DNA of 32,000 nucleotides from NCBI GenBank assembly GCA_015257795.3, contig CP072208.2:240001-272000 (forward strand). The letters are read 5' to 3'. This DNA comes from Candidatus Nanogingivalaceae bacterium (GTDB lineage Bacteria; Patescibacteriota; Saccharimonadia; Saccharimonadales; Saccharimonadaceae). This document shows, piece after piece, positions 1,582 to 32,000 of the stretch. Numbering within the stretch: the stretch's first letter is position 1; the number at the start of each line of letters is the position of its first letter. The notes below the pieces were generated by a model. That model did not search any database. It worked only from the letters and a program-made list of their open reading frames with translations, and was not told the DNA's origin. Made by a program: the position numbers and the translations under genes.

Positions 1582-2898
1582 TTATTTTTTGAGCTTTAAT
1601 ACGATCAGGTTTTCAATGTGCGGTGTTCGTGGAAAAAAGTTATATCCACGCGCATAAGTTATCTCGTATTTTTTGCTCAAAATTGCCACGTCACGCGCTT
1701 GTGTGGTTGGGTTGCAACTTAGGTAAATTACTTTTTCTGGCTCAATTTCGAGAATTTTCTCACAAACTTCGCGATTCATTCCGGCTCTTGGTGGGTCAAC
1801 AATTAGGTTTGAACCTTTTTTGATAAACTCCAGCGCTTTTTCGCTTGGCGCCAAGATAGCTTTTGCGGTTTCTTCCCTATTTAGCTTTTTGATATTTTTT
1901 TGCATTTCATCCACTGCAAATTCATTGATTTCCACTAGGGTTAAATCGCCCGCGCCAATCGTAAGTCCAATTGAACCCACACCAGAATATAAGTCAACCG
2001 TTGGCTTTGATGTGTCGATGAATTTTTGCATATCGCGCAAAGCTTGCTCATAAACCGGCAAATTGATTTGGAAAAAGCTTTCCGTTGCATAATTAAAGTC
2101 AATTCCTAGCACAGAATCTTGTAGTTTTTGATCTGTTGAGTTTTGAAGTCTTTCGGTAATCACGCTAGCTGGCGACTTTGGATTCGAAAAGATAATTTCG
2201 AAGTTTTTAAAGTTGAGTTTCGAAAGTTCTTGCTCGCTGAAAATTGTAAAGTTTTCATCTTTTACATAAAGCTGGGCTGAAATTTCACCCCTTTGACTGG
2301 CGCGAATTAACAAAGTTTTTAAATCTCGGCTTGGTGTTTTTCTTGTGCGTAAAATTTCAAGCACTTTTTGGCCAGCTTGATTGATTTCTGGCGTCGCCAA
2401 ACTCGTGCCTTTTACTGGGATTTTTCCCTTTCCACCCCGTCTAAAAAACGCCAAATTTAATTCGCCGTCATTTTCATCTTGTTCAGATTTTTCCCACCAA
2501 AATGAAAATTCTACCTTGTTGCGGTATTTAAAAATTTTTCCGTCAGAATAAAATTCTTCTTGATTTTTTAATTCAATTTTTTCTTGGCGGAAGCTTTCAA
2601 GGATTAGCTCTTGCTTGGTTTTTTGCTCAAAATCAAAATTAAAAATCTGCCACGGACTGGTTGAAAGAAAACTTTCGCTATCTTTTGGTTCAATTCTTTC
2701 GGCCGATTTTTCGAAAATTTCAACCGCAAAACCTTCGGCAAAACTTGATTTATTTTTGGTGATTTGAATTTTGGCGGTCTCACCCGGCAAAACACCCCAC
2801 GCAAAAATTTTTTTGCCCGATTCGAGCGTTCCCAAGGCTTGTCCGCCAGGGGTAATTTTATCAAACTTAACTGTTTCAAACTTAATTTTTCGTGCCAT
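1582..2898 (-). CDS. 23S rRNA (uracil-C5)-methyltransferase, RumA/RlmD/RlmCD (TrmA) family with an N-terminal TRAM domain
   Basis: TRAM-like N-terminus, SAM motif VDLYSGVGSIGL, DPPRAG, and the catalytic-Cys motif YLSCNPTTQARD. It lacks the four-Cys Fe-S cluster of E. coli RumA, as in Gram-positive RlmCD. It is translationally coupled to the upstream gene (GGAG, 2-nt gap). Confidence 0.85.
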   Translation of the reverse strand: MARKIKFETVKFDKITPGGQALGTLESGKKIFAWGVLPGETAKIQITKNKSSFAEGFAVEIFEKSAERIEPKDSESFLSTSPWQIFNFDFEQKTKQELILESFRQEKIELKNQEEFYSDGKIFKYRNKVEFSFWWEKSEQDENDGELNLAFFRRGGKGKIPVKGTSLATPEINQAGQKVLEILRTRKTPSRDLKTLLIRASQRGEISAQLYVKDENFTIFSEQELSKLNFKNFEIIFSNPKSPASVITERLQNSTDQKLQDSVLGIDFNYATESFFQINLPVYEQALRDMQKFIDTSKPTVDLYSGVGSIGLTIGAGDLTLVEINEFAVDEMQKNIKKLNREETAKAILAPSEKALEFIKKGSNLIVDPPRAGMNREVCEKILEIEPEKVIYLSCNPTTQARDVAILSKKYEITYARGYNFFPRTPHIENLIVLKLKK

Positions 2899-2900
2899 AA

Positions 2901-3641
2901 TTACTCCATTCTATCAAAATTTTTATTAAATTGCCAGATTTCAATCCAATCTTCACCCTTTAATTCGCTTGGTTTTTTGGTTTTAAATTTCAAGCTACAA
3001 TGTTTTTTGTAAAATTCTGGAGTGGCGAACATTTTGTCAATAAAATCGTTAAAAATTGGCTGTTCTTCTTTCGAAATTAGCGGAGTTTCTCGCCGTTTCA
3101 TCTCAAAAAATACAGTTTCAACGGCTGGGGGTGGCGTGAAGTCAGTCTTACGGAGTGGTTTCTTTATTTTATTTTCGAAAAAAGGAAAAGTTTTTGCGCC
3201 TAAGGCTGAAGTGAAATTTTGTTCACCGGCTATTAGCTTACGCGCGAATTGTTTTTGTAGAATTAAATAAATACTTTTGGGTGAATTTTGGGCATTTACG
3301 AGTTTTTGAATGATAGGCGAGCTTAAATGAAACGGAATATTCGCACAAACTTTATAGTTTTGAGGCGATTTTGAGAGGTTGAAGTGTAAGAAGTCTGCAC
3401 GCAAAACCTCAACATTTTCAAGGTTTTTGGTGTTATTTTTTAATTTTTTGAAAGTTTCACTATCAAACTCAATTGCTAAAACTTGCGCAGATTTCTTACT
3501 GAGAGCAAAAGTAAAAACACCGCTTCCAGCGCCAATATCTAGCGTAAAATCGCGTTTTCGAATATTGCTATGCCCAACGAGCATTAGCGCGATTCGTGGC
3601 GAACGCAAGAAATTTTGTGAAATGCGGTGTTTTCTAGCCAT
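2901..3641 (-). CDS. rRNA adenine N6-(di)methyltransferase of the Erm/KsgA family, Erm-like in length and termini
   Basis: N-terminal SQNFL, SAM motif DIGAGSG, motif IV NIPFHLSSPI, and FTPPPAVETV. It is 246 aa with a C-terminal domain laid out like ErmC. The start codon abuts the permease stop at 3642. Confidence 0.8.
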   Translation of the reverse strand: MARKHRISQNFLRSPRIALMLVGHSNIRKRDFTLDIGAGSGVFTFALSKKSAQVLAIEFDSETFKKLKNNTKNLENVEVLRADFLHFNLSKSPQNYKVCANIPFHLSSPIIQKLVNAQNSPKSIYLILQKQFARKLIAGEQNFTSALGAKTFPFFENKIKKPLRKTDFTPPPAVETVFFEMKRRETPLISKEEQPIFNDFIDKMFATPEFYKKHCSLKFKTKKPSELKGEDWIEIWQFNKNFDRME

Positions 3642-4919
3642 TTATTCGTATCTCAAAGCTTCAATCGGGTCTTTTTTACTTGCACTTCGTGATGGTAAAG
3701 CACCAGCCAAAAAGGCCACAATGGCGATAGCTATAGTTATAATTGTATTATTTTGCAGTGTGAATTTAGTTAACATAAATCCGTCCATTCCCTTTAAGAA
3801 ACTTTCTGTTGCGACATGGTTAAGGGCGTTTCCTGCGCCTTGGGCGAGTAGAATTCCTAAAATCGAACCAAGGACGCCAATTAAAATTGCTTCAATGCTA
3901 AACAATTGAAAGATTTTTCCGTTTGAGAGCCCCATTGCTTTCATTAAGCCGATTTCACGAGTTCGCTCACGCACGCTCATATAAAGCGTGTTGATAATTC
4001 CAAAACTAGCTGCAAGAAGGGCAATTGCACCAAATACAATCAATGAACCAGTAATCCCATTGACTACGTTCATAATTGTTTCGACTTGATCTTTAGCTGT
4101 GCTTGCTGAATAGCCTGCTTTTTCAGCATCTTTTTTAATTTGGTCTAGTTTTTCTTTAGAAACTTCACCGTTAACTTGTGCTAAAACTACAAAACTACTA
4201 TCTTTAACTTCTTTTGGTGTGCTTTTAGATTGAAATGCGTAAAAATCATCATAGCTTGGGCGACTAACCGTAACCATTGCAGATTGAATCAAGCTTTTAG
4301 CTGTTACACCCGTAATTTTTTGAGTAAAGATTTTTTTCTCGCCTGTTAAAGTGTCCGCGATTTGAATGTTAAGTTCTTTACCGATTGCGCTTTGAGCGTC
4401 TTTAAAGCCCATAGGCTCAAGGTAATCTTGCGAAATCGTAATCTCGCCACGATTTACTGCTTTTTTACCCGCTAAGAAATCAAAGTTATACTTTTGGCCG
4501 TCCGCTTCAACGATAACTGTTGTGATTGTGAGTTTTTTGCCATCTTTATATTGAACGTAGTCAGGAGTTATAAAGTCATATAAAGCTGCTTTTTTAACGT
4601 TAGGAATTTTGTTGATTTTCTCGACATCTTTTAAATTTAAAGTTGCTTGCGAAAATCTTGGATTAACTTGTTTGCTTCCATCTTTATATTCTTTTGGGCC
4701 AAAGGTAGTAGCTTCTTGTTTTGGATTAAAATAAAGTATTGAATCTTCACTAAAAACCGAAAGCTGGCGTTGAATATAATCGTTTACACCCATATTTACC
4801 GCAGAAGTTAATGCAATTGTAAATGAACCGATACAAACGGCAATAATCGTTAAAAAGGTGCGACCCTTATTCCGCCACAAATTTGAAGCTGAAGTTCCAA
4901 TCATATCTAAAAATTTCAT
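3642..4919 (-). CDS. ABC transporter permease, FtsX/MacB-type (4 TM with a large extracytoplasmic domain)
   Basis: It starts MKFLDMIGTSASNLWRNKGRTFLTIIAV, typical of MacB/FtsX permeases. ATG 4919-4917 overlaps the ATPase stop (TAATG) and GGAG lies at 4930-4927. The C-terminal FtsX domain includes REIGLMKAMG. Confidence 0.85.
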   Translation of the reverse strand: MKFLDMIGTSASNLWRNKGRTFLTIIAVCIGSFTIALTSAVNMGVNDYIQRQLSVFSEDSILYFNPKQEATTFGPKEYKDGSKQVNPRFSQATLNLKDVEKINKIPNVKKAALYDFITPDYVQYKDGKKLTITTVIVEADGQKYNFDFLAGKKAVNRGEITISQDYLEPMGFKDAQSAIGKELNIQIADTLTGEKKIFTQKITGVTAKSLIQSAMVTVSRPSYDDFYAFQSKSTPKEVKDSSFVVLAQVNGEVSKEKLDQIKKDAEKAGYSASTAKDQVETIMNVVNGITGSLIVFGAIALLAASFGIINTLYMSVRERTREIGLMKAMGLSNGKIFQLFSIEAILIGVLGSILGILLAQGAGNALNHVATESFLKGMDGFMLTKFTLQNNTIITIAIAIVAFLAGALPSRSASKKDPIEALRYE

Positions 4920-5611
4920 TAGTTTTCTCCTTTCGAAATAATTTGACCATCTTGAATTCGAATTTGGCGATCGCATTTTTGCGCTAAAGCTTCATCGTGT
5001 GTAACAATCACTAAAGTAATTCCCTTTTCTCTGTTTAAGCCAAAAAGTAAATCTTCAACTTTTGCGCTTGTTTTTGAATCGAGGTTTCCGGTTGGCTCAT
5101 CTGCAAAAATAATTTTTGGCGAGTTCACGATTGCTCGCGCCACGCAAACGCGTTGTTTTTGCCCACCAGAAAGATTCGAAGCTTTATTTTTAGCTTTGTC
5201 GGTTAACTCAACTGCTTCGAGAGCCTTTAACGCGATTTCTTTGCGCTTTCTTGAGCTAATTCCGGCAATTTTTAGTGGCAAAATTACATTTTGTAAAACT
5301 GTATCCTTTGGATTCATAAAGAATTGTTGAAAAACAAAGCCAAAAGTTTGGTTTCGAAGTTTGTTTAAATTGCGTTTTTTCATTTTAGCGATATTTTGTC
5401 CATCAATAAAAACTTCGCCTTCATTCGGTTTATCGAGTGCTGCTAAAAGGTGCATTAAAGTTGATTTTCCACTACCGGATTTTCCGATAATTGCTACACT
5501 TTCACCTTGATTAATACTGAACGAAACACCATTTAATGCTTTAAAAAATGTGTTTCCATCACGATAAACTTTTACAAGATTTTTAACTTCTATAATCTTT
5601 TCTTTATCCAT
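4919..5611 (-). CDS. ABC transporter ATP-binding protein (MacB/LolD-type)
   Basis: Walker A GKSGSGKST, Q-loop, signature LSGGQKQRV, Walker B IIFADEPTGNLD and H-loop VTHD. SD AAGAAAGGA lies upstream. Confidence 0.9.
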   Translation of the reverse strand: MDKEKIIEVKNLVKVYRDGNTFFKALNGVSFSINQGESVAIIGKSGSGKSTLMHLLAALDKPNEGEVFIDGQNIAKMKKRNLNKLRNQTFGFVFQQFFMNPKDTVLQNVILPLKIAGISSRKRKEIALKALEAVELTDKAKNKASNLSGGQKQRVCVARAIVNSPKIIFADEPTGNLDSKTSAKVEDLLFGLNREKGITLVIVTHDEALAQKCDRQIRIQDGQIISKGEN

Positions 5612-5673
5612 TTCTGTCCTTTCTTCTTGAATACAATTCTATAACAATCGTTTTTCGTTAAATATTTGCAAAA

Positions 5674-8472: not shown

Positions 8473-8481
8473 AGTGTTTAA

Positions 8482-8510: not shown

Positions 8511-8663
8511 GATGGCGGTTATGCTTCTTTCTGGTTTTCGAAAAAGAAAATCGCTCAAAATGGCGGCTTGACATATAGCAACTTAAAACAATAATTTCTT
8601 TTAGATAATATAGGCAAACTCATCAAAATATTTAGGAATACATAAAATATTCCGGCAGAAAAT

Positions 8664-8705
8664 AAAGAGGGCATCAAATGATATATTGCCCTCTTTTTAT
8701 TTTAT
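8664..8705 (-). terminator. Rho-independent terminator downstream of the RloC-like gene
   Basis: AAAGAGGGCA (8664-8673) / 13-nt loop / TGCCCTCTTT (8687-8696) with T-runs on both strands. Confidence 0.65.
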
Positions 8706-8743
8706 ACATCACTTTTAAAGTACTTATAATTTATAAATATTTA

Positions 8744-11266
8744 TCAATGTTTAGTTTGTATATTCTTGATTTCTTTCAGCATACTTTTTAGCTCGTCTTT
8801 ATCAACCGGATTTTCCTCACTCTCAGTTCCGTTATGTAATGCTCCACCCGAGCAACGCCCATGAATAGTATGTAATATGTCAATAATCTCCGAATTGTTT
8901 TCAATTTTTTTTAATTCATCCCAGTTGATTCGGCTATTTTTATTACTATATTTAGTGGGGACTTGATTGTTTAAAATTATTTCATCAATAGCAAACTCAA
9001 CCGCTTTTCTTAGCTTACCGCAAACAAGTTGTTTACTATTATCTGACAATGGATTTTCTGATAATAATTTTTCGATATCAGAAATATAAGTATTTAAGTT
9101 TTCAGTATGTTTTATTTTTATTATACCTTTTTTGTCTTGCCCATCACTCAAAGTTTCGTAAAGGAAAATATGCTTGCCTTTTGATTTACCGCATCCTCCA
9201 TTTACATTTTTACAGATATGACCTTCGGAACCTGTCTCGAAACAATCGAGAAACATCTTATTGTGAGTAAAAATAATAATTTGATTATTTAACGACATTA
9301 ATAACTCAGAAAAATTACTCATGATTCGATGATCTAAACTATTGACAGGGTCATCAAAGATTATAGTACTTTGATTATGTGAAAGACTAATTTCGGAAAT
9401 GAATAAAGCTAGAGCGGTGGCTTTTTGTTCACCCTCGCTTAAGATATCTTCTATATTTTTATTATTTCCTAAAACTAGCTCTGTTTGTTGATTTCCTTTA
9501 TTGTTTGAAGCTTGTAATTGGATGGAAAGATTACCTAACCCAAGCTTCTTTAAATTTTGCTTAAATGTTTTAAAGAGATTGTCTGTAAGTAGGTCATTGT
9601 GTGCCTTTTTACTTAATAGGCTTAATTTTGAAGTAGTTATTTCAGATATAAATTGTTCCTCTTGAAATAATTTATTTCTTAGATGAACAAACTTACTAAG
9701 TTGAGCAAATTGAGAATTTAGTATAGCTTTTTCCTCGAGTGCTATTAATTGCTGATTGTATTTTTCTAAAGATTCTATTCTCTGGGACTGCTTAGAGTTT
9801 AATTCAATTTGTAATTGCTTGATATCACCTATTTCTTTGGATAGATTATTTAATAGCTTATCTTGTATTTTGGGTGCTTTTATAGGTTTTTGCCCTCTCA
9901 ACCTACGTAAGAGCGATTTTTTATTTTTAATTATCTGCTTGTTTAAGGTTATAAGCTTAGGATCATCTTCAAGGGAGAGTTCTATCTTTTCGCTCTTCAA
10001 ATTTACCTTAGAAATATTTTGTAGTACTAGAATTTTTTCCTTGATATCTGCTGTATTTTTATCTAGTTGAATTTGAGTAGTATCTTTTATAAATTTTGAA
10101 TAAGCTTTTGTAATTTCTAACGAAGTTTCATCATATAGCCGATGACAATATGGACATTTATCTTCCAGTTCAAACTCTTCGCAATAACTTATTCCTGATT
10201 TGATAAAATTAGTCCAAGTATCACTATCAGTACCAGGTATATTATTAAAAACTTCAAACTGTTGTTTCGCAACACGATATTTCTTTGTTAATTCAAATCT
10301 ACTTTTAACAAGATTATCGACATTTTTTTGTTCTTCTTTAAGTAACGTAATTATTTTTCTAAATTCTAACTTTATTTTTTTAAGTTTTTCAAGTTTTATT
10401 TCATTGATTTTAATAGCATCGGCTGAATTCGATTTATTAAGATCCTCTATAGACTTTTTAGCCTTTTCAAGTTGATTTTTTTCTTTTGATGAAAAATTTT
10501 CAAAACTTTTTATTTTAACAATATCTTCTTTTTCGAAACTATCTTTATTTAAAAACTCTCTGAAAGATTCTGTAACCTTCTCGAGGTCAATGTCAGGAAG
10601 TGATTCTCTGTCAAGTTTTATCTTTTCTTTTGCTAATTCTTTAATTTCAATTATTAAATCACTTATTTCTGAAAAATATGAAAGTGCGTAAGGTTTAATT
10701 AAGAGTTCATCTGAGTTTCTTTTTTGCAAATAGTTATTAGCATACTCTGTATCAAAAACCCTAATAGAACGTAAATCCGAAATATTCGAAGTATTTGACC
10801 AAGTACTGGACTTAGGGGTATTATCTAAAAGATATTCAATATCAACATTAATATTCTTCGGAGAATCGCTATATACATTGTGCAAAATATTTTTTGATTT
10901 TGCGTGTCCTATCATATTATTTAGTACTCTAAAGTAACTACTCTTCCCAGTACCGTTAAGACCATAAATTATGTTAATTTGTGAAGAAAAAGAAATTTTT
11001 TGTTCATCAGAAAGAGCGTTCACTCCAGAATGATGATTTAATTTTTTTAATATTATTTTTTCATTGTTCGAATTAAATTCGTAAGATGGGGATTTTAATT
11101 CAGGTATTCCTTTTCTTTGAAGTAAATAATCTGCTAAATCATTCTTTGCATTATCATCAATAACTCCCTGATTCTCAATAAAGTATTTTATAACATAAGA
11201 TATCCAAGCATTGCATTTATCGTTTTCGGCTAATTCTATTAAATAATCAATTGCGTTGTTTTTCAT
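8744..11266 (-). CDS. RloC/PrrC-family (AAA_13-type) ABC-like ATPase with a coiled-coil insert, CxxC hook and C-terminal HEPN-like putative RNase domain
   Basis: Walker A GLNGTGKSS (aa 102-110, nt 10937-10963). A K/E/L-rich coiled coil of about 400 aa contains CPYC (aa 371-374, nt 10145-10156). Then come signature LSEGEQKA (aa 609-616), Walker B IIFDDP, D-loop SLD and H-loop FTHN. The C-terminal 160 aa carry LRKAVE (R753/E757) and RCSGGALH (an Rx6H motif, aa 804-811). SD AGAGGAG lies upstream. Confidence 0.7.
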   Translation of the reverse strand: MKNNAIDYLIELAENDKCNAWISYVIKYFIENQGVIDDNAKNDLADYLLQRKGIPELKSPSYEFNSNNEKIILKKLNHHSGVNALSDEQKISFSSQINIIYGLNGTGKSSYFRVLNNMIGHAKSKNILHNVYSDSPKNINVDIEYLLDNTPKSSTWSNTSNISDLRSIRVFDTEYANNYLQKRNSDELLIKPYALSYFSEISDLIIEIKELAKEKIKLDRESLPDIDLEKVTESFREFLNKDSFEKEDIVKIKSFENFSSKEKNQLEKAKKSIEDLNKSNSADAIKINEIKLEKLKKIKLEFRKIITLLKEEQKNVDNLVKSRFELTKKYRVAKQQFEVFNNIPGTDSDTWTNFIKSGISYCEEFELEDKCPYCHRLYDETSLEITKAYSKFIKDTTQIQLDKNTADIKEKILVLQNISKVNLKSEKIELSLEDDPKLITLNKQIIKNKKSLLRRLRGQKPIKAPKIQDKLLNNLSKEIGDIKQLQIELNSKQSQRIESLEKYNQQLIALEEKAILNSQFAQLSKFVHLRNKLFQEEQFISEITTSKLSLLSKKAHNDLLTDNLFKTFKQNLKKLGLGNLSIQLQASNNKGNQQTELVLGNNKNIEDILSEGEQKATALALFISEISLSHNQSTIIFDDPVNSLDHRIMSNFSELLMSLNNQIIIFTHNKMFLDCFETGSEGHICKNVNGGCGKSKGKHIFLYETLSDGQDKKGIIKIKHTENLNTYISDIEKLLSENPLSDNSKQLVCGKLRKAVEFAIDEIILNNQVPTKYSNKNSRINWDELKKIENNSEIIDILHTIHGRCSGGALHNGTESEENPVDKDELKSMLKEIKNIQTKH

Positions 11267-11321
11267 ATAAAATCTACTCCTCTTCTTACTTAGAAATAAC
11301 TTAAAACTACCTACCGCTTTT

Positions 11322-11330
11322 ATTATATCA
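11322..11330 (-). promoter_or_regulatory. Extended -10 (TGaTATAAT) upstream of the RloC-like gene
   Basis: The minus-strand reading is tgatataat, about 55 nt upstream of ATG 11266. The leader carries SD AGAGGAG. The -35 is weak. Confidence 0.4.
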
Positions 11331-11641
11331 TATTGTAGAGATAATGCGAGGCAGAGTTTAGTCTTAAGCAGCTCTTAAAACGTGCCAACTAAAATACTCT
11401 GGGGAAATATTTCGTTAAATTAAATTTTGCCCATAAAATTAATTCTTTCAAGATACTGTAGTTTCCGTTTCTTAGTTGAGAAATACTATATTATTTGTAA
11501 TAAAGCTTGTTCGAATCAGTCTTTGAATTGTGTCGATGAATAAAATTCTTTCAACTCCATAAAACGAGACTTTTAAGATTAGTCTATCACATGAAATACT
11601 ATAAAACCTATTCTAGATTCGTCAGTTTAAATCACTCCTAG

Positions 11642-11902
11642 AGGTGCTTTAATCCTATTTCTGACTTAACCGAAAAACTCACCAAACAATAAGAAGATAG
11701 CTTGAATATCTCCAAGTTTATGACAAAAATCTCTAAATATACACAAGTTTTGTAATTAACCGTTGAAATGGTGGATGAACTGATTGATAAGGTTGTGATT
11801 CATAAGCCAACTGGCATGAAACGCAATCGAATTATCCAGATAGACATCTATTACAATTCCATCAGAAAACTAAATATCGAAAAAGCGAGTCAGATGGACT
11901 GA
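11642..11902 (+). pseudogene. Decayed C-terminal fragment of a large serine recombinase (TndX-like, DUF4368-type C-terminus)
   Basis: One frame reads ...LTEKLTKQ*EDSLNISKFMTKISKYTQVL*LTVEMVDELIDKVVIHKPTGMKRNRIIQIDIYYNSIRKL...*. In-frame stops lie at 11690 and 11753. There is no catalytic N-terminal domain or start codon. The pattern (xFIxxVxKYT..ELTxEMLxELIDKIVVH...IxIYYNFI) matches my memory of DUF4368 tails. Confidence 0.6.
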
Positions 11903-11907
11903 CTCGC
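11885..11907 (+). terminator. Perfect 9-bp hairpin at the end of the recombinase remnant
   Basis: GCGAGTCAG / atgga / CTGACTCGC. It overlaps the remnant's stop codon. The downstream T-run is weak, so terminator function is uncertain. Confidence 0.35.
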
Positions 11908-11974
11908 TACTATTAATCCCCTAATAACTAAATTGCTAAGGTGTTAGCTTGACCAAACGAGCAATTTATTTGTT

Positions 11975-17994: not shown

Positions 17995-18099
17995 AAATTC
18001 CTTTCTTTTTTAACTTTCACAATTTATTATAACGAAACGGTCTTAATTTTGGCTTGGAATTAGCTTAAAGTTTGCTTAAAAGGGTTTTTCGAAATTAAG

Positions 18100-24995: not shown

Positions 24996-25027
24996 TAAAA
25001 AGCTTAAAAAATCATTAAATTTAAAAA

Positions 25028-26219: not shown

Positions 26220-26226
26220 GATCTAT

Positions 26227-26275
26227 ATTATATCACAAAACGCGACTTTCGAAAACATAAAAAATATGCTATACT
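26227..26275. promoter_or_regulatory. Divergent leaderless promoters: TGaTATAAT (26227-26235, minus) 7 nt before dus ATG 26219, and TGcTATACT (26267-26275, plus) 6 nt before ATG 26282
   Basis: Both extended -10 boxes were read directly. There is no SD on either side. A TTCGAA copy lies between them at 26248-26253. Confidence 0.55.
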
Positions 26276-26281
26276 ATAGTT

Positions 26282-27415: not shown

Positions 27416-27420
27416 AAATT

Positions 27421-27453
27421 AAAATCAGCCTCGAATTTCGAAAGGCTGATTTT
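27421..27453. terminator. Bidirectional terminator shared with cysS
   Basis: AAAATCAGCCT...AGGCTGATTTT, with a TTCGAA copy (27437-27442) at the stem apex. Confidence 0.7.
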
Positions 27454-27461
27454 TTATTGGA

Positions 27462-28862: not shown

Positions 28863-28871
28863 AATAGATAT

Positions 28872-28880
28872 ATTATATCA
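28872..28880 (-). promoter_or_regulatory. Extended -10 TGaTATAAT, 9 nt before cysS ATG 28862
   Basis: The minus-strand reading is tgatataat-atatctatt-ATG, with no SD. Confidence 0.5.
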
Positions 28881-28911
28881 CAGCACAAAGATTCTTTCCA
28901 TTTTATATAAA

Positions 28912-28938
28912 AAGAACCTGCCAGTTTGGCAGATTCTT
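28912..28938 (-). terminator. Terminator of rplA
   Basis: AAGAACCTGCCA / gtt / TGGCAGATTCTT (one mismatch). The minus strand continues tttttatat. Confidence 0.6.
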
Positions 28939-28955
28939 TGTGTTTGCTACTAAAA

Positions 28956-30026
28956 TTAAGCAATTGGGTTTTCTGTTTTAATGCTTGGACCTTGTGAGGT
29001 TGCAACTGAAACACCCTTTACGTAAGCACCTTTGATTGAAGATGGTTTTTGTGAAGCAAGACTATCGAAGAATGCTTTTGCGTTTTCTTCAAGTTTTTCT
29101 ACACCGAATGATACTTTACCAACTGAAAGGTGAACAATCGCTTGTTTGTCAACACGGTATTCAACTTTTCCGGCTTTAGCTTCAGAAACAGCTTTAGCAA
29201 CATCAGCGGCAACTGTTCCAGCTTTAGGGTTTGGCATTAATCCGCGTGGTCCAAGAAGGCGAGCGTATTTACCAAGTTTTGGCATGTATGCTGGAGTTGC
29301 AATAAGAACATCAAAGTTAAGATCTTCTTTATCAAGTTGTTTCAAGAATTCTTCATCGCCAATGATATTTGCGCCAGCTTCTTTTGCGGCTTTATGTTCG
29401 CTTTCTGGTGCGAAAACGGCAACTTCCACATCTTTACCGGTTCCATTTGGCAAGATAACTGTTGAACGAATGTTTTGGTCAGCTTGTCGTGGATCTACAC
29501 CAAGTCGAACGTGAATTTCAACTGAAGCGTCGAATTTAGCTGGGTTTGTTTCGGTTGCAAGTTTAAGAGCGTCAGATAGGCTGTAAACAGTATCTTTTTC
29601 AACTTTTTTCGCAACTTCTTGGTATTTTTTACCTCGTCGTTCGATTCGTGGTCGAGTAATTGGTTTTGGACCTTTTTTAACAACAGCTTCAGATCCATCT
29701 AATGGAGCTGTGTCGCCTGCTGCTTTTCGAGCTTCTTTGGCTTCTTTTTCAGCAACTTCTTCAGCGTGTTTTTTGCTGCGTTTTCCGCTTTTTGCGAATT
29801 TTTCTTCTGTTTCTACAGCTTCAACAATTTCTTCTGCGATTTCAGCTGCTTCAACTGATTCTTCTACGGCTTCCGCTACTTCTACAGCTTCAACAATTTC
29901 TTCTGCGATTTCTTCAGCTTTAGCACCTTTGATTGCTTCATTAATTTGAGCAATTGTCATTTTTTCAGAAACTTCAAGCCCAAGAGCTTTAGCTTCTTCG
30001 ATCAAGTCGGCTTTTTTCTTTGCCAT
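28956..30026 (-). CDS. rplA: 50S ribosomal protein L1 with an N-terminal extension of about 125 aa
   Basis: The C-terminal 230 aa are collinear with bacterial L1 (RGKKYQEVAKKV...FDASVEIHVRLGVDPRQADQNIRSTVILPNGTGK...LGPRGLMPNPKAGTV). The N-terminal extension is in the same ORF with no internal start, and SD GAAAGGA lies 6 nt before ATG 30026. Confidence 0.9.
   Translation of the reverse strand: MAKKKADLIEEAKALGLEVSEKMTIAQINEAIKGAKAEEIAEEIVEAVEVAEAVEESVEAAEIAEEIVEAVETEEKFAKSGKRSKKHAEEVAEKEAKEARKAAGDTAPLDGSEAVVKKGPKPITRPRIERRGKKYQEVAKKVEKDTVYSLSDALKLATETNPAKFDASVEIHVRLGVDPRQADQNIRSTVILPNGTGKDVEVAVFAPESEHKAAKEAGANIIGDEEFLKQLDKEDLNFDVLIATPAYMPKLGKYARLLGPRGLMPNPKAGTVAADVAKAVSEAKAGKVEYRVDKQAIVHLSVGKVSFGVEKLEENAKAFFDSLASQKPSSIKGAYVKGVSVATSQGPSIKTENPIA
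29812..29912 (-). repeat. Exact 32-nt direct repeat (29812-29843 and 29881-29912) encoding the AEEIVEAVE acidic repeats of the L1 extension
   Basis: tctacagcttcaacaatttcttctgcgatttc occurs twice, 69 nt apart. Confidence 0.8.
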
Positions 30027-30037
30027 TTCTATCCTTT

Positions 30038-30068
30038 CTGTGGTAATAGCGGCTTGCGCCTCCCAACA
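30038..30068 (-). promoter_or_regulatory. Putative L1-binding autoregulatory leader (mimic of the 23S L1 stalk)
   Basis: The leader RNA is ...UGUUGGGAGGC-GCAA-GCCGCUAUUACCACAG-AAAGGA..AUG. It contains GGGAGGC, a GNRA-capped stub and AUUACCAC, which echoes the GGUGGGAGGC...AAAUACCACCC junction of 23S H76-78 as I recall it from E. coli. Confidence 0.4.
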
Positions 30069-30086
30069 TTGATTATTAACCTTTTA

Positions 30087-30115
30087 ATTATAACAATTTT
30101 TTGAGAAAAAGTCAA
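30087..30115 (-). promoter_or_regulatory. rplA promoter: -35 TTGACT, 17-nt spacer, extended -10 TGtTATAAT
   Basis: The minus-strand reading is ttgact-ttttctcaaaaaattgt-tataat. It begins 2 nt after the YhgE stop codon. Confidence 0.6.
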
Positions 30116-30117
30116 AA

Positions 30118-32000
30118 CTAAATTTTATTGCTAGAAAGAGTTTTGTTTTCGCTAGAACTCATTTTGACGTAATACGCCAATAAACTTATAACACCAAAAA
30201 TTAAACCAAAAATAATCAAACTAAAGATGGAACTTTCAAAAATTGGTTGAGATAATCCGCCTAATATTGCTTGTCTGAAAGCGGTTAGCGAATAGTAAAG
30301 CGGCATAAATGGCGCCATGTTTTGAAAAATTTGAGGTGTTGTCGCAATCGGGAACATTCCCCCGCTACTTGCAAGCTGTAAAATCATGAAAACAATTGAA
30401 GCAAACTGGCCAACTCTGCCGAAAGCAAACATTAATGCATGAACAATCAAAAGGAATGAAAATGCCGAAACATAAGAACTCAAAACAAAAGAATTTATAT
30501 CCGCAGGTGAAATGTTAAATATTCCGCTAAAAATAATTGTAAGAACTAGAGTTTCAGCTCCGGCAAAGCCAGCCATAATCCCTACCCTTGAAAGCCACCA
30601 TTTAAGTGCTGAACAATTCTTTTTTGGCTTATTTTGGATCGGAAACGCAATATTAAACGAAATCGCCCCAACAAACAAACCTAATGCGATGAAATATGGA
30701 GCCATCGCTTTTCCGTATGTTGCATCTCCAGAATTATTTGAAACTTCACTTTTAACTGGCGTTGCGATATTTTTAGCAGATTCATCCGAGAAATTAATTT
30801 TCGAAAGTTTTTCTGCACCAGATGAAAGTTGTGAAGTTAATAGATTCGAGCCATCTTGTAGTTTTGTGGTGCCGGAATTTATTGTGTTTATTCCTGAATT
30901 TAAAGTGTTAATTCCGCCCAAAAGTTGAGCTGTACTTTCAGGGATTTTTTGTTCACTGGTGTTAAATTCGTTCATTTTTGTTGAGAAAGTTGTAACTCCA
31001 GTTGAAAGCTGTTTTTCGCCCGATAGAAGTAAGTTGTGTGAATTTTGTATTTTGCGTGAATTTTGCGCCAAGCTTTGTGCGGCTGGAACAATTTTTTGCG
31101 AAAATTGCGTTTGCAAGTTTTGCGATTTTTTAGCATTTTTTTGGGCGTCAGCGGTAATATTTTTTGCCGAAATCGCCAACTCATCGGCAAGATTTTTAAT
31201 ATTCTGATTATTAGTTTGTTCAGCTAAAATGTGCATTTTTGCCACTTTTTGATTTAATTCCAATAAGTGTTCACTTTGATTTTTTGCATCAGAATTATCG
31301 CTTATCGCAGAATTTAGTGTGGTTAAACCATTCGAAAACTCTTCACTTTTGGCCGAAAAATCTTGTAATCCCTTTTGTAAGTTTTCGCTATTTTGGCTTA
31401 AAAGATTGGTTTTATTTGAAATTTCGGTTGCACTAAAAGCAAGTTTATTACTCGCTTCGGCCATTTTCTGGTTTGCTGAATTTAATTTTTCCGCGCCATT
31501 TTTTAGTTTTATAACTCCAGAATTTGCCGAATTTAAACTATTGCCTAAACTACTAATCCCGTTTGAAATTTGTTCTGAACCGCTCGCTGCTTTCGAAAAA
31601 CCGTTTTGAACATTCGAAAGTTGAGAAAGTAGAATCTTACTGTAGTTTTCACTAATTTGCGCTCGAACCTGTTCACTCAGTTTTTGTGCGGCGTTGGTTG
31701 AAATCATTTCACCAGATTTACTTTTCGAAACATTTGTTTTAAATGAAATATTCACTTTTTGCGGATTTTCTCCCAAAAAACTAACTGAATTTTTCGAAAA
31801 ATCTTTTGGAATATGTACAATCATGAAAGTGTCGCCATCGGTCAAATCTTTCTCGGCTGTTTTTAAATCCGTAAACTGCCAGTTTAAAGTTCTTGATTGC
31901 TTAAGGTTATTGCTAATTTTATTGCCAAGTTCAATATTTTGACCATTAAAAAGGACAGGTTCATCTTCATTTACTACTGATATCTTTAGGTTTTCGATTT
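30118..32000 (-). CDS. YhgE/Pip domain membrane protein (partial; N-terminus beyond the right edge)
   Basis: The frame stays open to base 32000 (...ISVVNEDEPVLFNGQNIELGNKISNNLKQSRTLNWQFTDLKTAEKDLTDGDTFMIVHIPKDFS), a typical YhgE N-terminal region. A long N/S/Q-rich helical ectodomain follows, then a C-terminal ABC-2-type 5-6 TM bundle. Confidence 0.8.
   Translation of the reverse strand, partial: IENLKISVVNEDEPVLFNGQNIELGNKISNNLKQSRTLNWQFTDLKTAEKDLTDGDTFMIVHIPKDFSKNSVSFLGENPQKVNISFKTNVSKSKSGEMISTNAAQKLSEQVRAQISENYSKILLSQLSNVQNGFSKAASGSEQISNGISSLGNSLNSANSGVIKLKNGAEKLNSANQKMAEASNKLAFSATEISNKTNLLSQNSENLQKGLQDFSAKSEEFSNGLTTLNSAISDNSDAKNQSEHLLELNQKVAKMHILAEQTNNQNIKNLADELAISAKNITADAQKNAKKSQNLQTQFSQKIVPAAQSLAQNSRKIQNSHNLLLSGEKQLSTGVTTFSTKMNEFNTSEQKIPESTAQLLGGINTLNSGINTINSGTTKLQDGSNLLTSQLSSGAEKLSKINFSDESAKNIATPVKSEVSNNSGDATYGKAMAPYFIALGLFVGAISFNIAFPIQNKPKKNCSALKWWLSRVGIMAGFAGAETLVLTIIFSGIFNISPADINSFVLSSYVSAFSFLLIVHALMFAFGRVGQFASIVFMILQLASSGGMFPIATTPQIFQNMAPFMPLYYSLTAFRQAILGGLSQPIFESSIFSLIIFGLIFGVISLLAYYVKMSSSENKTLSSNKI

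What the first reader, a model, noticed from the sequence alone, without database searches (positions are those of the whole stretch)
1582..32000. Highly iterated palindrome: TTCGAA (usually TTTCGAAA) occurs about 87 times, roughly 8-fold over expectation, in every codon phase and in non-coding DNA
I counted TTCGAA by hand, with an uncertainty of a few copies.

| Interval | Copies |
|---|---|
| 1-1581 | 0 |
| 1582-8574 | 20 |
| 8575-11974 | 4 |
| 11975-15631 | 10 |
| 15632-18164 | 14 |
| 18165-20545 | 4 |
| 20546-24717 | 14 |
| 24718-28955 | 15 |
| 28956-32000 | 6 |

With A and T near 0.31 each and G and C near 0.19 each, only about 10-11 copies are expected in 32 kb.

- **Comparison hexamers:** Palindromes of the same composition (ATCGAT, AACGTT) look like single-digit counts by eye.
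- **Flanks:** They are biased to T upstream and A downstream (tTTCGAAa).
- **Not a dipeptide effect:** All three phases occur. TTC-GAA encodes F-E at 3174-3179, atT-TCG-AAa encodes I-S-K at 4932-4937, and aTT-CGA-Att encodes I-R-I at 4957-4962.
- **Non-coding copies:** They are at 18088-18093, 26248-26253 and a terminator apex at 27437-27442.
- **Density:** About 1 per 370 bp, comparable to the cyanobacterial HIP1 element (GCGATCGC).
- **Uneven distribution:** There are none in the pilin, DUF421 and rplA genes, 1 in the LPXTG gene and 4 in the AT-rich RloC island. The motif may therefore also mark native versus recently acquired or strongly codon-selected DNA.

Candidate explanations are a methylation or repair-linked motif (the BstBI/AsuII specificity), a DNA-uptake signal for pilus-dependent natural transformation, or a nucleoid-protein site.
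Basis: seen in the sequence. Interest (0 to 1): 0.85.

Follow-up and report, generated by a model that had tools for sequence, protein, structure and literature searches.

The report
Hyper-abundant TTTCGAAA palindrome in G6 Saccharibacteria
The genome of an uncultivated, ultrasmall mouth bacterium (Saccharibacteria clade G6) is peppered with the short palindrome TTTCGAAA, kept in place by selection on the DNA itself. It is the same kind of unexplained genomic "watermark" as the cyanobacterial HIP1 element and, as far as I could find, has not been reported in this phylum.

Summary
- TTCGAA occurs 90 times in 32 kb. Expected counts are 10.6 from base composition, 26.8±5.3 from dinucleotide shuffles and 26.2±4.3 from protein-preserving synonymous-codon shuffles.
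- The true unit is the octamer TTTCGAAA: 51 copies against about 1.1 expected. It is the top 8-mer in the window.

**Where it occurs.**
- The window comes from Saccharibacteria clade G6 strain JB003 (CP076102).
- It occupies all three reading frames and intergenic DNA (9 copies against 0.97 expected).
- It fills 67% of the positions in core genes where the protein sequence permits the octamer.
- It sits at the chance level in a horizontally acquired defence gene (PDC-S06).
- All sampled G6 clades carry it, one at about half density. Distant Saccharibacteria do not.

**Evidence for selection.** Synonymous sites inside the motif are far more conserved than matched sites outside (87/104 against 63 expected, p=3e-7). 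Loss of motif sites is halved. The rate of new motif creation is not detectably raised.

**Interpretation.**
- This is a HIP1-type highly iterated palindrome under DNA-level selection.
- Codon or dipeptide bias is excluded; repair bias alone is unsupported.
- The mechanism is inferred only. I favour recognition by a symmetric DNA-binding or DNA-modifying protein, probably a TTCGAA methyltransferase, linked to natural transformation.
- No DNA methyltransferase gene was seen in the roughly 53 kb I could reach.

The parts
2183..31798 (.). Field of 90 dispersed TTCGAA palindromes, 51 of them the full octamer TTTCGAAA and 13 the decamer TTTTCGAAAA.

Start coordinates: 2183, 2197, 2219, 2710, 3070, 3174, 3557, 4932, 4957, 5175, 5353, 5979, 6029, 6450, 6635, 6717, 6864, 7712, 8203, 8537, 10532, 10785, 11067, 11510, 12286, 12751, 12972, 13254, 13278, 13629, 14133, 14460, 14886, 14957, 15397, 15717, 15750, 16051, 16196, 16344, 16365, 16643, 16685, 17258, 17280, 17377, 17591, 17759, 18088, 18642, 20232, 20263, 20538, 20641, 21214, 21463, 21745, 21796, 21860, 22076, 22182, 22407, 22654, 22677, 23397, 23968, 24341, 24483, 25158, 25178, 25226, 25458, 25476, 25826, 26092, 26248, 26581, 26719, 27437, 27514, 27903, 28444, 28495, 28706, 30800, 31331, 31592, 31613, 31724, 31793.
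   Evidence: - Exact search and shuffles.
- Octamer and decamer counts.
- Codon-aware nulls.
- Top-ranked k-mer.
3174..3179 (-). Example of a frame-0 copy (TTC-GAA, Phe-Glu) in the Erm-like gene. Eighteen coding copies are in this frame.
   Evidence: - (frame table).
- Conserved in 8 of the 12 mid-group relatives compared (clade B plus L016).
4932..4937 (-). Example of the commonest frame (xxT-TCG-AAx, X-Ser-Lys/Asn). Forty-eight coding copies are in this frame.
4957..4962 (-). Example of the third frame (xTT-CGA-Axx, [ILFV]-Arg-X). Seventeen coding copies are in this frame.
   Evidence: -.
- The third base of CGA inside motifs is 100% conserved against clade B, compared with 73% outside.
26248..26253 (.). 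Intergenic copy between the divergent Dus and AI-2E/PerM genes. It is conserved in every aligned mid-group relative.
   Evidence: - 11 of 11 relatives carry TTCGAA at this site.
- Intergenic enrichment is 9 observed against 0.97 expected.
18088..18093 (.). Intergenic copy between the FtsX-like permease gene and the LPXTG surface-protein gene.
27426..27456 (.). Hairpin followed by a T-run between the convergent PerM and CysRS genes (aatcagcct-cgaaTTTCGAAa-ggctgatttttt), with TTTCGAAA at its apex. This copy is not conserved in the mid-group relatives.
   Evidence: - Sequence read.
- 0 of 11 relatives carry the motif here.
8575..11974 (-). Motif-poor, AT-rich island (gene GC 29%) carrying a single PDC-S06 (AAA_13, RloC-like) candidate defence gene at 8744-11266. 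It holds 4 TTCGAA copies, and the gene uses 3 of 24 peptide-compatible positions, which is the null expectation.
   Evidence: - Observed 3 against expected 2.9.
- Class breakdown.
- Island absent in L076 and L077.
- PADLOC PDC-S06, E=0, residues 1-839 of 843.
1..2182 (.). Motif-free stretch covering the pilin gene, DUF421 and the 3' end of the RlmD-like gene. It is explained by lack of peptide-compatible positions (2 and 1 in the two genes), not by foreign origin.
   Evidence: -.
- The region aligns with the clade B relatives from position 1.
28956..30026 (-). rplA gene with no copy. Only 2 peptide-compatible positions exist in it.

Best explanation
**What it is.** TTTCGAAA (core TTCGAA) is a highly iterated palindrome of the HIP1 kind.
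- It is a lineage-specific octamer.
- It is spread through the chromosome of clade G6 Saccharibacteria by point substitution.
- It is held there by selection acting on the DNA sequence itself, not on the proteins or RNAs it overlaps.

**Shown here.**
- Hyper-abundance in all reading frames and in intergenic DNA.
- Near-saturation of the positions that proteins allow.
- Extra conservation of synonymous sites across the whole motif.
- Roughly halved loss rate.
- Presence in every sampled G6 clade and absence from distant Saccharibacteria.
- Null-level density in a recently acquired defence gene.

**Inferred.**
- A strictly symmetric 6-8 bp site is read on double-stranded DNA by a symmetric (dimeric, or Type II-like) sequence-specific protein.
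- I think the most likely reader is a DNA methyltransferase of TTCGAA specificity (the BstBI/AsuII specificity) without effective cognate restriction.
- The methylated motif would then serve as a 'self' watermark that favours binding, uptake or recombination of DNA from the same species during natural transformation.
- This follows what is now reported for methylated HIP1 in cyanobacteria and methylated RAATTY in Campylobacter jejuni.
- Under this reading, chromosomal sites are kept because alleles carrying them are transmitted and repaired preferentially.
For: **Abundance.**
- 90 TTCGAA against 10.6, 26.8 and 26.2 expected under the three nulls.
- 51 TTTCGAAA against about 1.1 expected.
- Both are the top k-mers against the codon-aware null.

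**Not translational.**
- Three frames are used.
- Intergenic DNA has 9 copies against 0.97 expected.

**Saturation.** 44 of 66 octamer-compatible positions in core genes carry the motif, and 43 of those 44 are the full octamer.

**Genome-wide.**
- 29 more copies in 9.1 kb upstream and 11 in 8.0 kb downstream.
- 17 in 4 kb of an unrelated G6 region, L144.

**Lineage.**
- The window is identical to CP076102 (JB003, clade G6).
- Enrichment is 8-11-fold in clades A, B and D and 4-5-fold in clade C.
- It is 1.2-1.8-fold in distant Saccharibacteria and similar in most outgroup loci (0-3.2-fold).
- Use of octamer-compatible positions is 58-74% in A/B/D, 40-44% in C and 0 of 22 in L061.

**Selection.**
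- About 70% of sites are conserved between clades A and B, against 35% for all hexamers and about 30% for other WWCGWW hexamers.
- Synonymous third positions inside the motif are more conserved than sites of matched base and degeneracy outside. Fourfold G is 0.77 against 0.35 (p=8e-6) and fourfold A is 1.00 against 0.63.
- The pooled Mantel-Haenszel test gives 87/104 against 63.2 expected, p=3e-7.
- Motif hexamers change in 16.9% of lineage comparisons, against 33-42% for other CG-centred hexamers.
- Derived gains segregate at higher frequency than control SNPs, and derived losses at lower frequency.

**Foreign DNA lacks it.**

**Context for transformation.**
- DprA, RecR and a pilin gene lie within or next to the window.
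- Natural competence is demonstrated in G1 Saccharibacteria (PMC10633639).
- Methylated HIP1 boosts transformation (bioRxiv 10.1101/2024.09.10.611283; 10.64898/2026.06.24.733823).
- C. jejuni imports only RAATTY-methylated DNA (PMC10046745).
- HIPs track orphan methyltransferases in cyanobacteria (PMC4390886).
Against: - No DNA methyltransferase, restriction enzyme or Vsr gene was seen in the roughly 53 kb of G6 sequence I could read. The only methyltransferases there are rRNA or tRNA types.
- The other ~93% of the 691-kb genome was out of reach, so the methylation step is pure inference.
- No excess CpG transition loss marks the central C as 5-methylcytosine. The central G at synonymous sites is more conserved than other G-ending sites, not less.
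- A long-read assembly (L026) shows no excess of private differences at the motif that might betray a modified base.
- G6 is uncultivated, and its competence is assumed from G1 relatives and from the presence of dprA.
- G1 strains were transformed with synthesized linear DNA (PMC10633639), and the paper never mentions methylation.
- A site every ~350 bp with per-site conservation is denser than a one-tag-per-fragment uptake signal would need.
- Known 6-bp methyltransferase sites do not explain the strong outer T/A preference of the octamer.
Confidence: 0.4

Rival explanations
1. **Classical DNA uptake sequence without methylation.** A pilus, ComEA or other surface receptor would bind TTTCGAAA directly. 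Preferential uptake plus recombination (molecular drive) would then spread and maintain the motif, as with Neisseria DUS and Pasteurellaceae USS.
For: - Copy density is about 1.6-2.8 per kb.
- The motif is present in all frames wherever proteins allow.
- It is at null level in foreign DNA and conserved across sister species.
- Gains and losses are balanced, with gains at higher population frequency.
- Pilin and dprA genes are nearby.
- Saccharibacteria are naturally competent (PMC10633639).
Against: - Known uptake sequences are 9-12 bp and non-palindromic. This one is a strict palindrome of 6-8 bp.
- The density is several times what one tag per imported fragment requires.
- The gain rate from one-off precursors is not detectably raised (6/79 against 157/2852).
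- G1 strains take up synthetic DNA, although those constructs carried genomic flanks.
- No uptake data exist for G6.
Confidence: 0.2
2. **Chromosome-internal function.** The motif would be the binding or marking site for a nucleoid-associated or chromosome-organising protein. Alternatively it would be a strand-discrimination mark for mismatch repair or replication. Either way, selection would favour high density along the chromosome.
For: - Per-site conservation at synonymous positions and in intergenic DNA.
- Very high density.
- Palindromic symmetry fits a dimeric binder.
- Xu et al. inferred a nucleoid-structure role for HIP1 from comparable evidence (PMC5861425).
- Elhai proposed methyl-directed repair (PMC4390886).
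- A YbaB/EbfC-type DNA-binding protein gene lies just downstream.
Against: - Spacing is not regular. The gap coefficient of variation is 1.13, with gaps up to 2.1 kb set by protein opportunity.
- A 49-kb sample cannot test 10-90 kb periodicity.
- No candidate binder is identified. YbaB is universal and not G6-specific.
- Mismatch-repair genes were not seen in the reachable sequence.
Confidence: 0.15
3. **Neutral by-product of a context-specific mutation or repair bias.** An example would be very-short-patch (Vsr-type) correction of T:G to C:G in TTYGAA. This would continually regenerate the motif without any function.
For: - The commonest alternative state at orthologous sites is TTCAAA/TTTGAA.
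- One-off neighbours are below the dinucleotide expectation (0.43-0.80).
- E. coli Dcm/Vsr is known to raise CCWGG (established knowledge).
Against: - CpG-creating transitions in TTCAAA/TTTGAA precursors are not significantly more frequent than in other contexts (7.6% against 5.5%, OR 1.4, p=0.45).
- The outer T and A positions, which such repair cannot protect, are the most conserved synonymous sites (0.87-1.00 against 0.63-0.83).
- TTCAAA predominates because TCG to TCA is the synonymous transition in the commonest frame.
- The neighbour depletion is measured against an expectation that the motif itself inflates.
Confidence: 0.07
4. **Side effect of codon usage, codon-pair or dipeptide preferences** (Phe-Glu, X-Ser-Lys, hydrophobic-Arg-Lys) in an AT-rich genome.
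For: - The codons TCG and CGA and the T/A-rich neighbouring codons are common.
- 48 of 83 coding copies share one frame.
Against: - Shuffles that preserve proteins and codon usage give 26.2 ± 4.3 against 83 observed, and 6.7 against 45 for the octamer.
- All three frames are used.
- Intergenic DNA is equally enriched (9 against 0.97).
- The same codons are more conserved inside the motif than outside.
- Distant Saccharibacteria with the same peptides use 0 of 22 compatible positions.
Confidence: 0.02

Closest known systems
HIP1 and related highly iterated palindromes (GCGATCGC, TCGATCGA, GGGATCCC, GGCGCC) of cyanobacteria
   Same: - A palindromic octamer with a 6-bp core.
- About 1,550 octamers per Mb and observed/expected about 46. 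Both are inside or near the ranges Elhai tabulates (300-2,700 per Mb; O/E 55-228).
- The top k-mer of the genome.
- Spread by substitution through coding sequence (all frames) and non-coding DNA.
- Conserved between species beyond the codon-level expectation, which is the same test and the same outcome as Xu et al. (PMC5861425).
- Lineage-specific, with density varying between sister clades.
- Palindromic flank extensions beyond the core.
   Different: - A different sequence: AT-rich, with a single central CpG and no GATC.
- A different phylum: an ultrasmall episymbiont with a 0.69-Mb genome. Obligate cyanobacterial symbionts, by contrast, tend to lose HIP1.
- No cognate methyltransferase has been identified yet.
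- Periodicity cannot be tested on 49 kb.
DNA uptake sequences (Neisseria DUS, Pasteurellaceae USS)
   Same: - About one to a few copies per kb, on the order of a thousand or more per genome.
- Placed wherever proteins tolerate them.
- Shared by related species.
- Scarce in recently acquired DNA.
- The organism belongs to a naturally competent phylum with type IV pili.
   Different: - DUS and USS are 9-12 bp, non-palindromic and orientation-bearing. Here the motif is a strict 6-8 bp palindrome at higher density.
- No uptake bias has been measured.
- Only one copy sits in a terminator-like hairpin.
Methylation-gated uptake in Campylobacter jejuni (RAATTY methylated by CtsM)
   Same: - A short, AT-rich palindromic hexamer.
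- It acts, once methylated by an orphan methyltransferase, as the 'self' tag required for DNA import (PMC10046745).
- This is the working model I favour here.
   Different: - RAATTY is degenerate, and as far as I know it has not been described as hyper-abundant relative to expectation.
- Here the over-representation is the main fact, and the methylation is hypothetical.
Type II restriction-modification specificity TTCGAA (BstBI, AsuII, Csp45I, NspV, SfuI; from established knowledge of REBASE)
   Same: The 6-bp core is exactly this recognition sequence, so enzymes that read it exist in nature.
   Different: - Hosts of active restriction systems normally avoid their own site. Here the site is 8-fold enriched.
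- The selected unit is 8 bp.
- No such enzyme gene was found in the sequence examined.
Dcm/Vsr very-short-patch repair in E. coli (CCWGG enrichment; established knowledge)
   Same: A methyltransferase site whose frequency is raised by a sequence-specific process, with the deamination product as the main alternative allele.
   Different: - The enrichment there is modest and is driven by a gain bias.
- Here the gain rate is not detectably raised, and the flanks are conserved too.

Membership tests
Highly iterated palindrome (HIP class) | A short (6-8 bp) perfect palindrome. | tested here: met
   - TTCGAA and TTTCGAAA are self-complementary.
- The symmetric flank logo shows T 77% at -1 and A 64% at +1.
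Highly iterated palindrome (HIP class) | Hyper-abundance: the top k-mer, tens-fold over expectation, hundreds to thousands of copies per Mb. | tested here: met
   - 51 octamers in 32 kb (about 1,590 per Mb; O/E about 46).
- 76 octamers in 49 kb.
- Top 6-mer and top 8-mer against the codon-aware null.
Highly iterated palindrome (HIP class) | Dispersed by nucleotide substitution, not by insertion of a mobile repeat. No conserved sequence beyond the motif. | tested here: met
   - The states at orthologous sites without the motif are almost all substitutions (TTCAAA, CTCGAA, TTAGAA and others), with few gaps.
- The logo is flat beyond ±5.
Highly iterated palindrome (HIP class) | Present in coding DNA in all frames and in non-coding DNA. 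| tested here: met
   - Frames 18/17/48.
- Intergenic 9 observed against 0.97 expected.
Highly iterated palindrome (HIP class) | Sites conserved between genomes beyond codon or composition controls (criterion of Xu et al. 2018). | tested here: met
   (Mantel-Haenszel p=3e-7).
Highly iterated palindrome (HIP class) | Contains the target of a DNA methyltransferase encoded by the same genome (association described by Elhai 2015). | not testable with these tools
   - Only about 53 kb of a 691-kb genome could be read.
- No DNA methyltransferase is encoded there.
- The supplementary gene tables of the genome paper are truncated.
HIP1 proper | Sequence GCGATCGC in a cyanobacterial genome. | tested here: not met
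   The sequence is different, and the organism is Saccharibacteria clade G6.
DNA uptake sequence (DUS/USS) | A non-palindromic 9-12 bp core occurring in both orientations. | tested here: not met
   The motif is a perfect 6-8 bp palindrome.
DNA uptake sequence (DUS/USS) | About 1 copy per kb in native DNA and scarce in recently acquired DNA. | tested here: met
   - 2.8 hexamers and 1.6 octamers per kb.
- The island gene is at null level.
DNA uptake sequence (DUS/USS) | Frequent inverted pairs forming transcription terminators. | tested here: inconclusive
   - One copy sits at the apex of a terminator-like hairpin.
- A palindrome cannot form oriented pairs.
DNA uptake sequence (DUS/USS) | Experimentally biased uptake through a dedicated receptor. 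| not testable with these tools
   G6 is uncultivated and no assay data exist.
Recognition site of an active Type II restriction-modification system (TTCGAA) | The host genome avoids, or at least does not enrich, its own site. | tested here: not met
   8.5-fold enrichment.
Recognition site of an active Type II restriction-modification system (TTCGAA) | Cognate methyltransferase and endonuclease genes are present. | not testable with these tools
REP/MITE-type extragenic palindromic repeats | An imperfect palindrome of 20-40 bp or more, extragenic and hairpin-forming. | tested here: not met
   - Only 8-10 bp are conserved.
- 90% of copies lie inside genes.
Chi / KOPS / AIMS-type octamers | Non-palindromic and strand-skewed with respect to replication. 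| tested here: not met
   A palindrome carries no strand information.

The most novel reading that the evidence does not exclude
TTTCGAAA would be the first HIP-type element outside cyanobacteria.

- It would work as a methylation-dependent 'self' tag that gates DNA uptake or recombination in an uncultivated member of the Candidate Phyla Radiation.
- The HIP phenomenon would then be a general, convergently evolved solution for recognising DNA of one's own kind in naturally competent bacteria.
- Adding the (methylated) octamer to constructs would give a handle for genetic manipulation of G6 Saccharibacteria.
Probability: 0.25. Interest if true: 0.85.

Novelty: new variant of a known kind. Interest (0 to 1): 0.72.

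Why it matters
**Breaking the link to cyanobacteria.**
- Highly iterated palindromes have been studied for thirty years almost only in cyanobacteria, and their function is only now being tied to methylation-dependent transformation.
- An independent, equally extreme case with a different sequence has now turned up in a minimal 0.69-Mb episymbiont of the human mouth.
- It supplies a second natural system for testing the competing ideas: uptake tag, repair mark or nucleoid site.

**Practical uses.**
- The octamer is a sharp compositional signature for binning and for spotting horizontally acquired DNA in G6 genomes. The defence island stands out at the null level.
- Its twofold density difference between G6 clades, and its absence from other Saccharibacteria, set up a clean phylogenetic-profiling search for the responsible gene.
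- If it enhances transformation, as HIP1 does, it could help make this uncultivated clade genetically tractable.

Tried and rejected
1. **Codon, dipeptide or codon-pair bias.** Rejected by protein-preserving shuffles, three-frame usage and intergenic enrichment.
2. **Vsr-like replenishment.** The rate of CpG-creating transitions in TTCAAA/TTTGAA is not significantly above other contexts, and the flanks are conserved.
3. **Hypermutable methylated CpG.**
   - At first TTCAAA looked like a deamination signature.
   - Controlling for base and degeneracy showed that the central G is more conserved than other fourfold G sites.
4. **The Erm-like methyltransferase at 2901-3641 as the culprit.** It scores as an Erm/KsgA-type rRNA enzyme and is present in all clades, including the low-density one.
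5. **Clade C as a derived 'loss' lineage.**
   - A TopA-only tree suggested this.
   - A three-protein concatenate (1,226 columns, 100% bootstrap) and a nucleotide tree (97%) place clade C basal to A+B+D.
   - The polarity is therefore open.
   - Clade C's own sites are ancient and conserved.
6. **A replacement motif in clade C or in distant Saccharibacteria.** None was found.
7. **A modified-base signature in a long-read assembly.** Private differences of L026 are not significantly enriched at motif sites (ratio 1.49, p=0.39).
8. **Regular spacing.** The gap coefficient of variation is 1.13. An excess of 18-25 bp gaps (8 against 3.0, p=0.003, post hoc) was not replicated in the flanks.
9. **Finding a DNA methyltransferase.**
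   - The supplementary tables of the genome paper are truncated.
   - No tool route reaches the rest of CP076102.
10. **Searching viral and metagenome collections for other motif-dense genomes with a triple-octamer pattern.**
    - It returned mostly local operator-like arrays.
    - It also returned one more G6 region (L144) and two odd phage contigs.

Full report

Yes.
- An exact search finds 90 TTCGAA in the 32-kb window, the first at 2183.
- Base composition predicts 10.6 copies.
- One hundred dinucleotide-preserving shuffles give 26.8 ± 5.3, with a maximum of 40.
- Markov models of order 2, 3 and 4 predict 42, 49 and 74. The rise reflects inflation of the sub-words TCGA (219 against 106), TTCGA and TTTCGA by the motif itself.
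- Palindromes of the same composition are unremarkable: AACGTT has 9 copies and ATCGAT has 6.

- Shuffling synonymous codons within each gene, so that every protein and each gene's codon usage are kept, gives 26.2 ± 4.3 copies in coding DNA against 83 observed (z=13). None of 500 shuffles exceeded 41.
- Shuffling whole codons gives 22.1 ± 4.4.
- Against this codon-aware null, TTCGAA is the most over-represented of all hexamers.

**2. What exactly is repeated?**

The unit is longer than six bases.
- TTTCGAAA occurs 51 times, against about 1.1 from composition and 6.7 from the synonymous shuffle. TTTTCGAAAA occurs 13 times.
- The logo shows T at 77% before the core and A at 64% after it, then decays to background within two more positions.
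- TTTCGAAA is the top octamer against the codon-aware null (z=14.5).
- Nothing else is conserved around the sites, so this is not a mobile repeat.

**3. Not a protein or translation effect.**
- Coding copies fall in all three frames: 18 as TTC-GAA, 17 as xTT-CGA-Axx and 48 as xxT-TCG-AAx.
- Nine copies lie outside my ORF list, in 2,898 nt of 29.5% GC DNA where 0.97 is expected. Two of them are inside a 65-aa ORF called in L080, so 7-9 are truly intergenic.
- No tRNA gene is involved.

**4. Saturation and the uneven distribution.**

I enumerated every position where the encoded peptide could be written with TTCGAA. These are Phe-Glu, [FLIV]-Arg-[KNIMTRS], and X-Ser-[KN] after a codon that can end in T.

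| Position class in core genes | Carry TTCGAA |
|---|---|
| Octamer-compatible | 44 of 66 (67%); 43 of the 44 are the full TTTCGAAA |
| Heptamer-compatible only | 34% |
| Hexamer-compatible only | 29% |

| Gene | Compatible positions |
|---|---|
| pilin | 2 |
| DUF421 | 1 |
| rplA | 2 |
| glutaredoxin-like (my addition) | 2 |
| LPXTG protein | 4 |

Their emptiness is lack of opportunity, not foreignness or codon selection.

The one real exception is the AT-rich island.
- Its 840-aa gene has 24 compatible positions and uses 3, exactly the chance value of 2.9.
- The gene is absent from otherwise near-identical strains (L076, L077).
- It is a full-length match to the PADLOC candidate defence system PDC-S06.

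**5. Whose genome is it, and how widespread is the motif?**
- Window positions 1-11545 are 100% identical to CP076102.2.
- That record is the 691,584-bp complete genome of strain JB003, Saccharibacteria clade G6 (HMT-870, 'Candidatus Nanogingivalaceae'), assembled from saliva (PMC8386444, PMC9600527).
- Neither paper mentions the motif or DNA methylation. Searches of the paper library for the motif, for HIPs in Saccharibacteria or the Candidate Phyla Radiation, and for G6 returned nothing relevant.
- Flanking DNA from the same genome continues the pattern: 29 copies in 9.1 kb upstream and 11 in 8.0 kb downstream, for 130 hexamers and 76 octamers in 49 kb.
- An unrelated G6 region recovered from a metagenome has 17 copies in 4 kb (L144).

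Among 73 loci fetched around the topoisomerase I gene:

| Group | TTCGAA enrichment | TTTCGAAA enrichment |
|---|---|---|
| Most close relatives | 8-11-fold | 38-63-fold |
| L004, L006, L012 (clade C) | 4-5-fold | about 20-fold |
| More distant Saccharibacteria (61% TopA identity, 45% GC) | 1.2-1.8-fold | none (0 copies) |
| Bacteroidota, Firmicutes and Proteobacteria loci | none (0-3.2-fold) | none, or 1-6 copies |

One 1.8-kb locus (L020) has only one octamer.

**6. Relationships of the G6 clades.**
- Pairwise identities define clades A (the window and its close kin), B, D and C.
- A TopA-only tree placed C inside B with weak support.
- A concatenate of three proteins (1,226 columns, outgroup L061) places C basal to a tight A+B+D cluster with 100% bootstrap. 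Amino-acid distances are 0.040-0.047 within A/B/D and 0.105-0.118 to C. A nucleotide tree agrees at 97%.
- I therefore withdraw my interim reading that C had secondarily lost the motif. The polarity is open.

What can be said about clade C:
- About 80% of clade C's sites are shared with A or B.
- Clade C's sites are conserved in B at 0.70-0.85, against 0.38-0.40 for background hexamers.
- The motif therefore predates the split of all sampled G6 lineages.
- Use of octamer-compatible positions is 58-74% in A, B and D and 40-44% in C.
- In the distant genome L061 it is 0 of 22 compatible positions, where the window uses 9 of 17 on the same columns.
- No alternative motif replaces it in C or in L061.

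**7. Evidence for selection on the DNA.**

(a) Site conservation.
- Between the window and clade B (about 83% nucleotide identity), about 70% of TTCGAA sites are intact.
- The figures are 35% for all hexamers and about 30% for other WWCGWW hexamers.

(b) Synonymous third positions.
- I restricted the comparison to codons whose amino acid is unchanged, matched base and degeneracy, and used one representative genome (L005).
- Fourfold G is 0.77 conserved inside the motif against 0.35 outside (p=8e-6).
- Fourfold A is 1.00 against 0.63 (p=0.003).
- Fourfold T is 0.87 against 0.64.
- Pooled over strata, 87 of 104 are conserved against 63.2 expected (Mantel-Haenszel p=3e-7).
- This is the test Xu et al. 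used for HIP1, with the same outcome (PMC5861425).

(c) Polarised lineages.
- Ancestral motif hexamers changed in 16.9% of cases, against 33-42% for other CG-centred hexamers.
- CpG transitions in particular were halved (OR 0.52, p=0.03).

(d) The reverse step.
- TTCAAA/TTTGAA to TTCGAA occurred in 6 of 79 precursors, against 157 of 2,852 for CpG-creating transitions elsewhere (OR 1.4, p=0.45).
- Maintenance is therefore by reduced loss, not by detectable replenishment.

(e) Turnover within the nine-genome core of clade B.
- Gains (23-26) and losses (17-25) since the split from A are balanced.
- Derived gains segregate at higher frequency (0.64-0.70) than control T>C SNPs (0.49).
- Derived losses segregate at lower frequency (0.46-0.48) than control C>T SNPs (0.58).
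- Terminal branches show more losses than gains, as expected if many losses are transient.

**8. What these results exclude.**
- Codon or dipeptide bias is excluded (sections 1, 3 and 7b).
- A purely neutral Vsr-type repair bias is disfavoured. The gain rate is not raised, and the outer T/A positions, which such repair cannot protect, are the best-conserved synonymous sites.
- The frequent TTCAAA alternative is simply the synonymous TCG/TCA transition in the commonest frame.
- REP/MITE-type elements, Chi, KOPS and AIMS fail on length, location or symmetry.
- An active TTCGAA restriction system would predict avoidance, not enrichment.

**9. Mechanism: shown and inferred.**

Shown: a symmetric 8-bp word is under genome-wide, lineage-specific purifying selection at the DNA level and is missing from new DNA.

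Inferred:
- Such a word is read on duplex DNA by a symmetric protein.
- The core equals a known Type II specificity (BstBI/AsuII; established knowledge).
- In cyanobacteria, HIP variants track orphan methyltransferases (PMC4390886).
- Methylated HIP1 raises transformation up to 100-fold without being part of a restriction system (bioRxiv 10.1101/2024.09.10.611283). HIP1 is now proposed as an uptake sequence (bioRxiv 10.64898/2026.06.24.733823).
- C. jejuni imports only DNA methylated at RAATTY by CtsM (PMC10046745).
- Saccharibacteria are naturally competent through ComEC (PMC10633639).
- This genome encodes pilins in the window, and DprA and RecR just downstream.

I therefore favour a methyltransferase-linked 'self' watermark exploited in transformation or recombination (confidence about 0.4).

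| Explanation | Confidence |
|---|---|
| Methyltransferase-linked 'self' watermark | 0.40 |
| Methylation-independent uptake sequence | 0.20 |
| Chromosome-internal role (nucleoid binding or repair mark) | 0.15 |
| Neutral repair bias | 0.07 |
| Codon effects | 0.02 |

The weak points:
- No DNA methyltransferase was seen in the ~53 kb examined. The only methyltransferases there are an RlmD-like enzyme, an Erm-like enzyme and a KsgA-type RrnaAD-family enzyme.
- There is no mutational or assembly-error trace of base modification.
- No data exist on competence in G6.
- The density is greater than a simple uptake tag needs.

**10. Novelty and verdict.**
- The phenomenon belongs to a known kind, the highly iterated palindromes.
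- It has a new sequence, sits in a new phylum and occurs in a minimal episymbiont genome.
- According to Xu et al., high abundance of HIP1 itself has not been observed outside cyanobacteria.
- I found no prior report of this motif.
- I class it as a new variant of a known kind and rate it of high but not extreme interest.
- It is testable at once with the deposited nanopore reads and complete genomes.

Noticed in passing
window 8575-11974: - A single-gene island (840 aa, AAA_13, RloC-like; gene GC 29%) is a full-length match to the PADLOC candidate defence system PDC-S06.
- It is absent from strains L076 and L077 and is replaced by a 788-aa variant in L075.
- This marks a variable defence hotspot between the DUF8128/TrwB-like ATPase gene and the sigma-like gene.
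   Followed up: partly
window, e.g. 16344/16365, 17258/17280, 22654/22677, 25158/25178, 25458/25476, 31592/31613: - Pairs of motif copies 18-25 bp apart are more frequent than an opportunity-weighted null predicts (8 against 3.0, p=0.003).
- The range was chosen post hoc.
- The excess was not replicated in the 17 kb of flanking sequence (1 of 38 gaps).
   Followed up: partly
L108 (IMGVR_UViG_3300044959_000237, 111-kb viral contig) and L119: - A phage-like contig carries 96 TTCGAA in 12 kb (24-fold).
- It also has other hyper-abundant words that overlap into the 14-bp palindrome ATGTTCCGGAACAT (ATGTTCCG 91 copies, CCGGAACA 76).
- L119 has 44 TTCGAA in 7 kb.
- The host is unknown, and no relationship to G6 was established.
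   Followed up: partly
window 13232-15631 (topA) compared with 5674-8574 and 11975-13033: - The TopA protein tree mixes clade C with clade B.
- The three-protein concatenate and the nucleotide tree place C basal.
- This may reflect topA exchange between G6 clades, or only weak signal.
   Followed up: partly
window 2901-3641 and L079 about 15346-16137: - There are two RrnaAD-family genes within 13 kb.
- One scores best as an Erm-type 23S rRNA methyltransferase (176 bits, below the 212-bit cut-off). It lies next to an RlmD-like gene.
- The other is the probable KsgA.
- The Erm-like copy is conserved in all G6 clades.
   Followed up: partly
window 28956-30026: - rplA encodes 356 aa.
- It has an N-terminal extension of about 130 residues that is acidic and Ala/Glu/Val-rich (AEEIVEAVE-type repeats).
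- The gene contains a 33-bp direct repeat (29811-29843 and 29880-29912).
   Followed up: no
window 15632-20545: - This block holds the ABC ATPase, FtsX-like permease, LPXTG surface protein and a 172-aa hypothetical protein.
- It aligns with clades A and D but not with clade B.
- It is motif-rich all the same (the ATPase and permease genes use 4/6 and 7/14 compatible positions), so it is long-resident in this lineage.
   Followed up: no
L026 (CAKAEX010000001.1, 666-kb contig): The TopA and Erm-like reading frames are broken in this assembly (split tblastn segments). This points to residual indel errors of a long-read assembly.
   Followed up: partly
L080 1-8026 (downstream of the window end): - A cluster of DNA-handling genes lies here: DprA, YbaB/EbfC, RecR and a DHH (RecJ-like) phosphoesterase, plus MarR.
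- Motif density here is lower (1.4 per kb), and several small hypothetical genes are present.
   Followed up: no
L163, L147, L148, L180 (unrelated metagenome contigs): Local arrays of TTTCGAAA are embedded in longer palindromes (for example GTACTTTCGAAAGTAC) or in tandem repeats. They look like operator arrays or coding repeats, not genome-wide enrichment.
   Followed up: no
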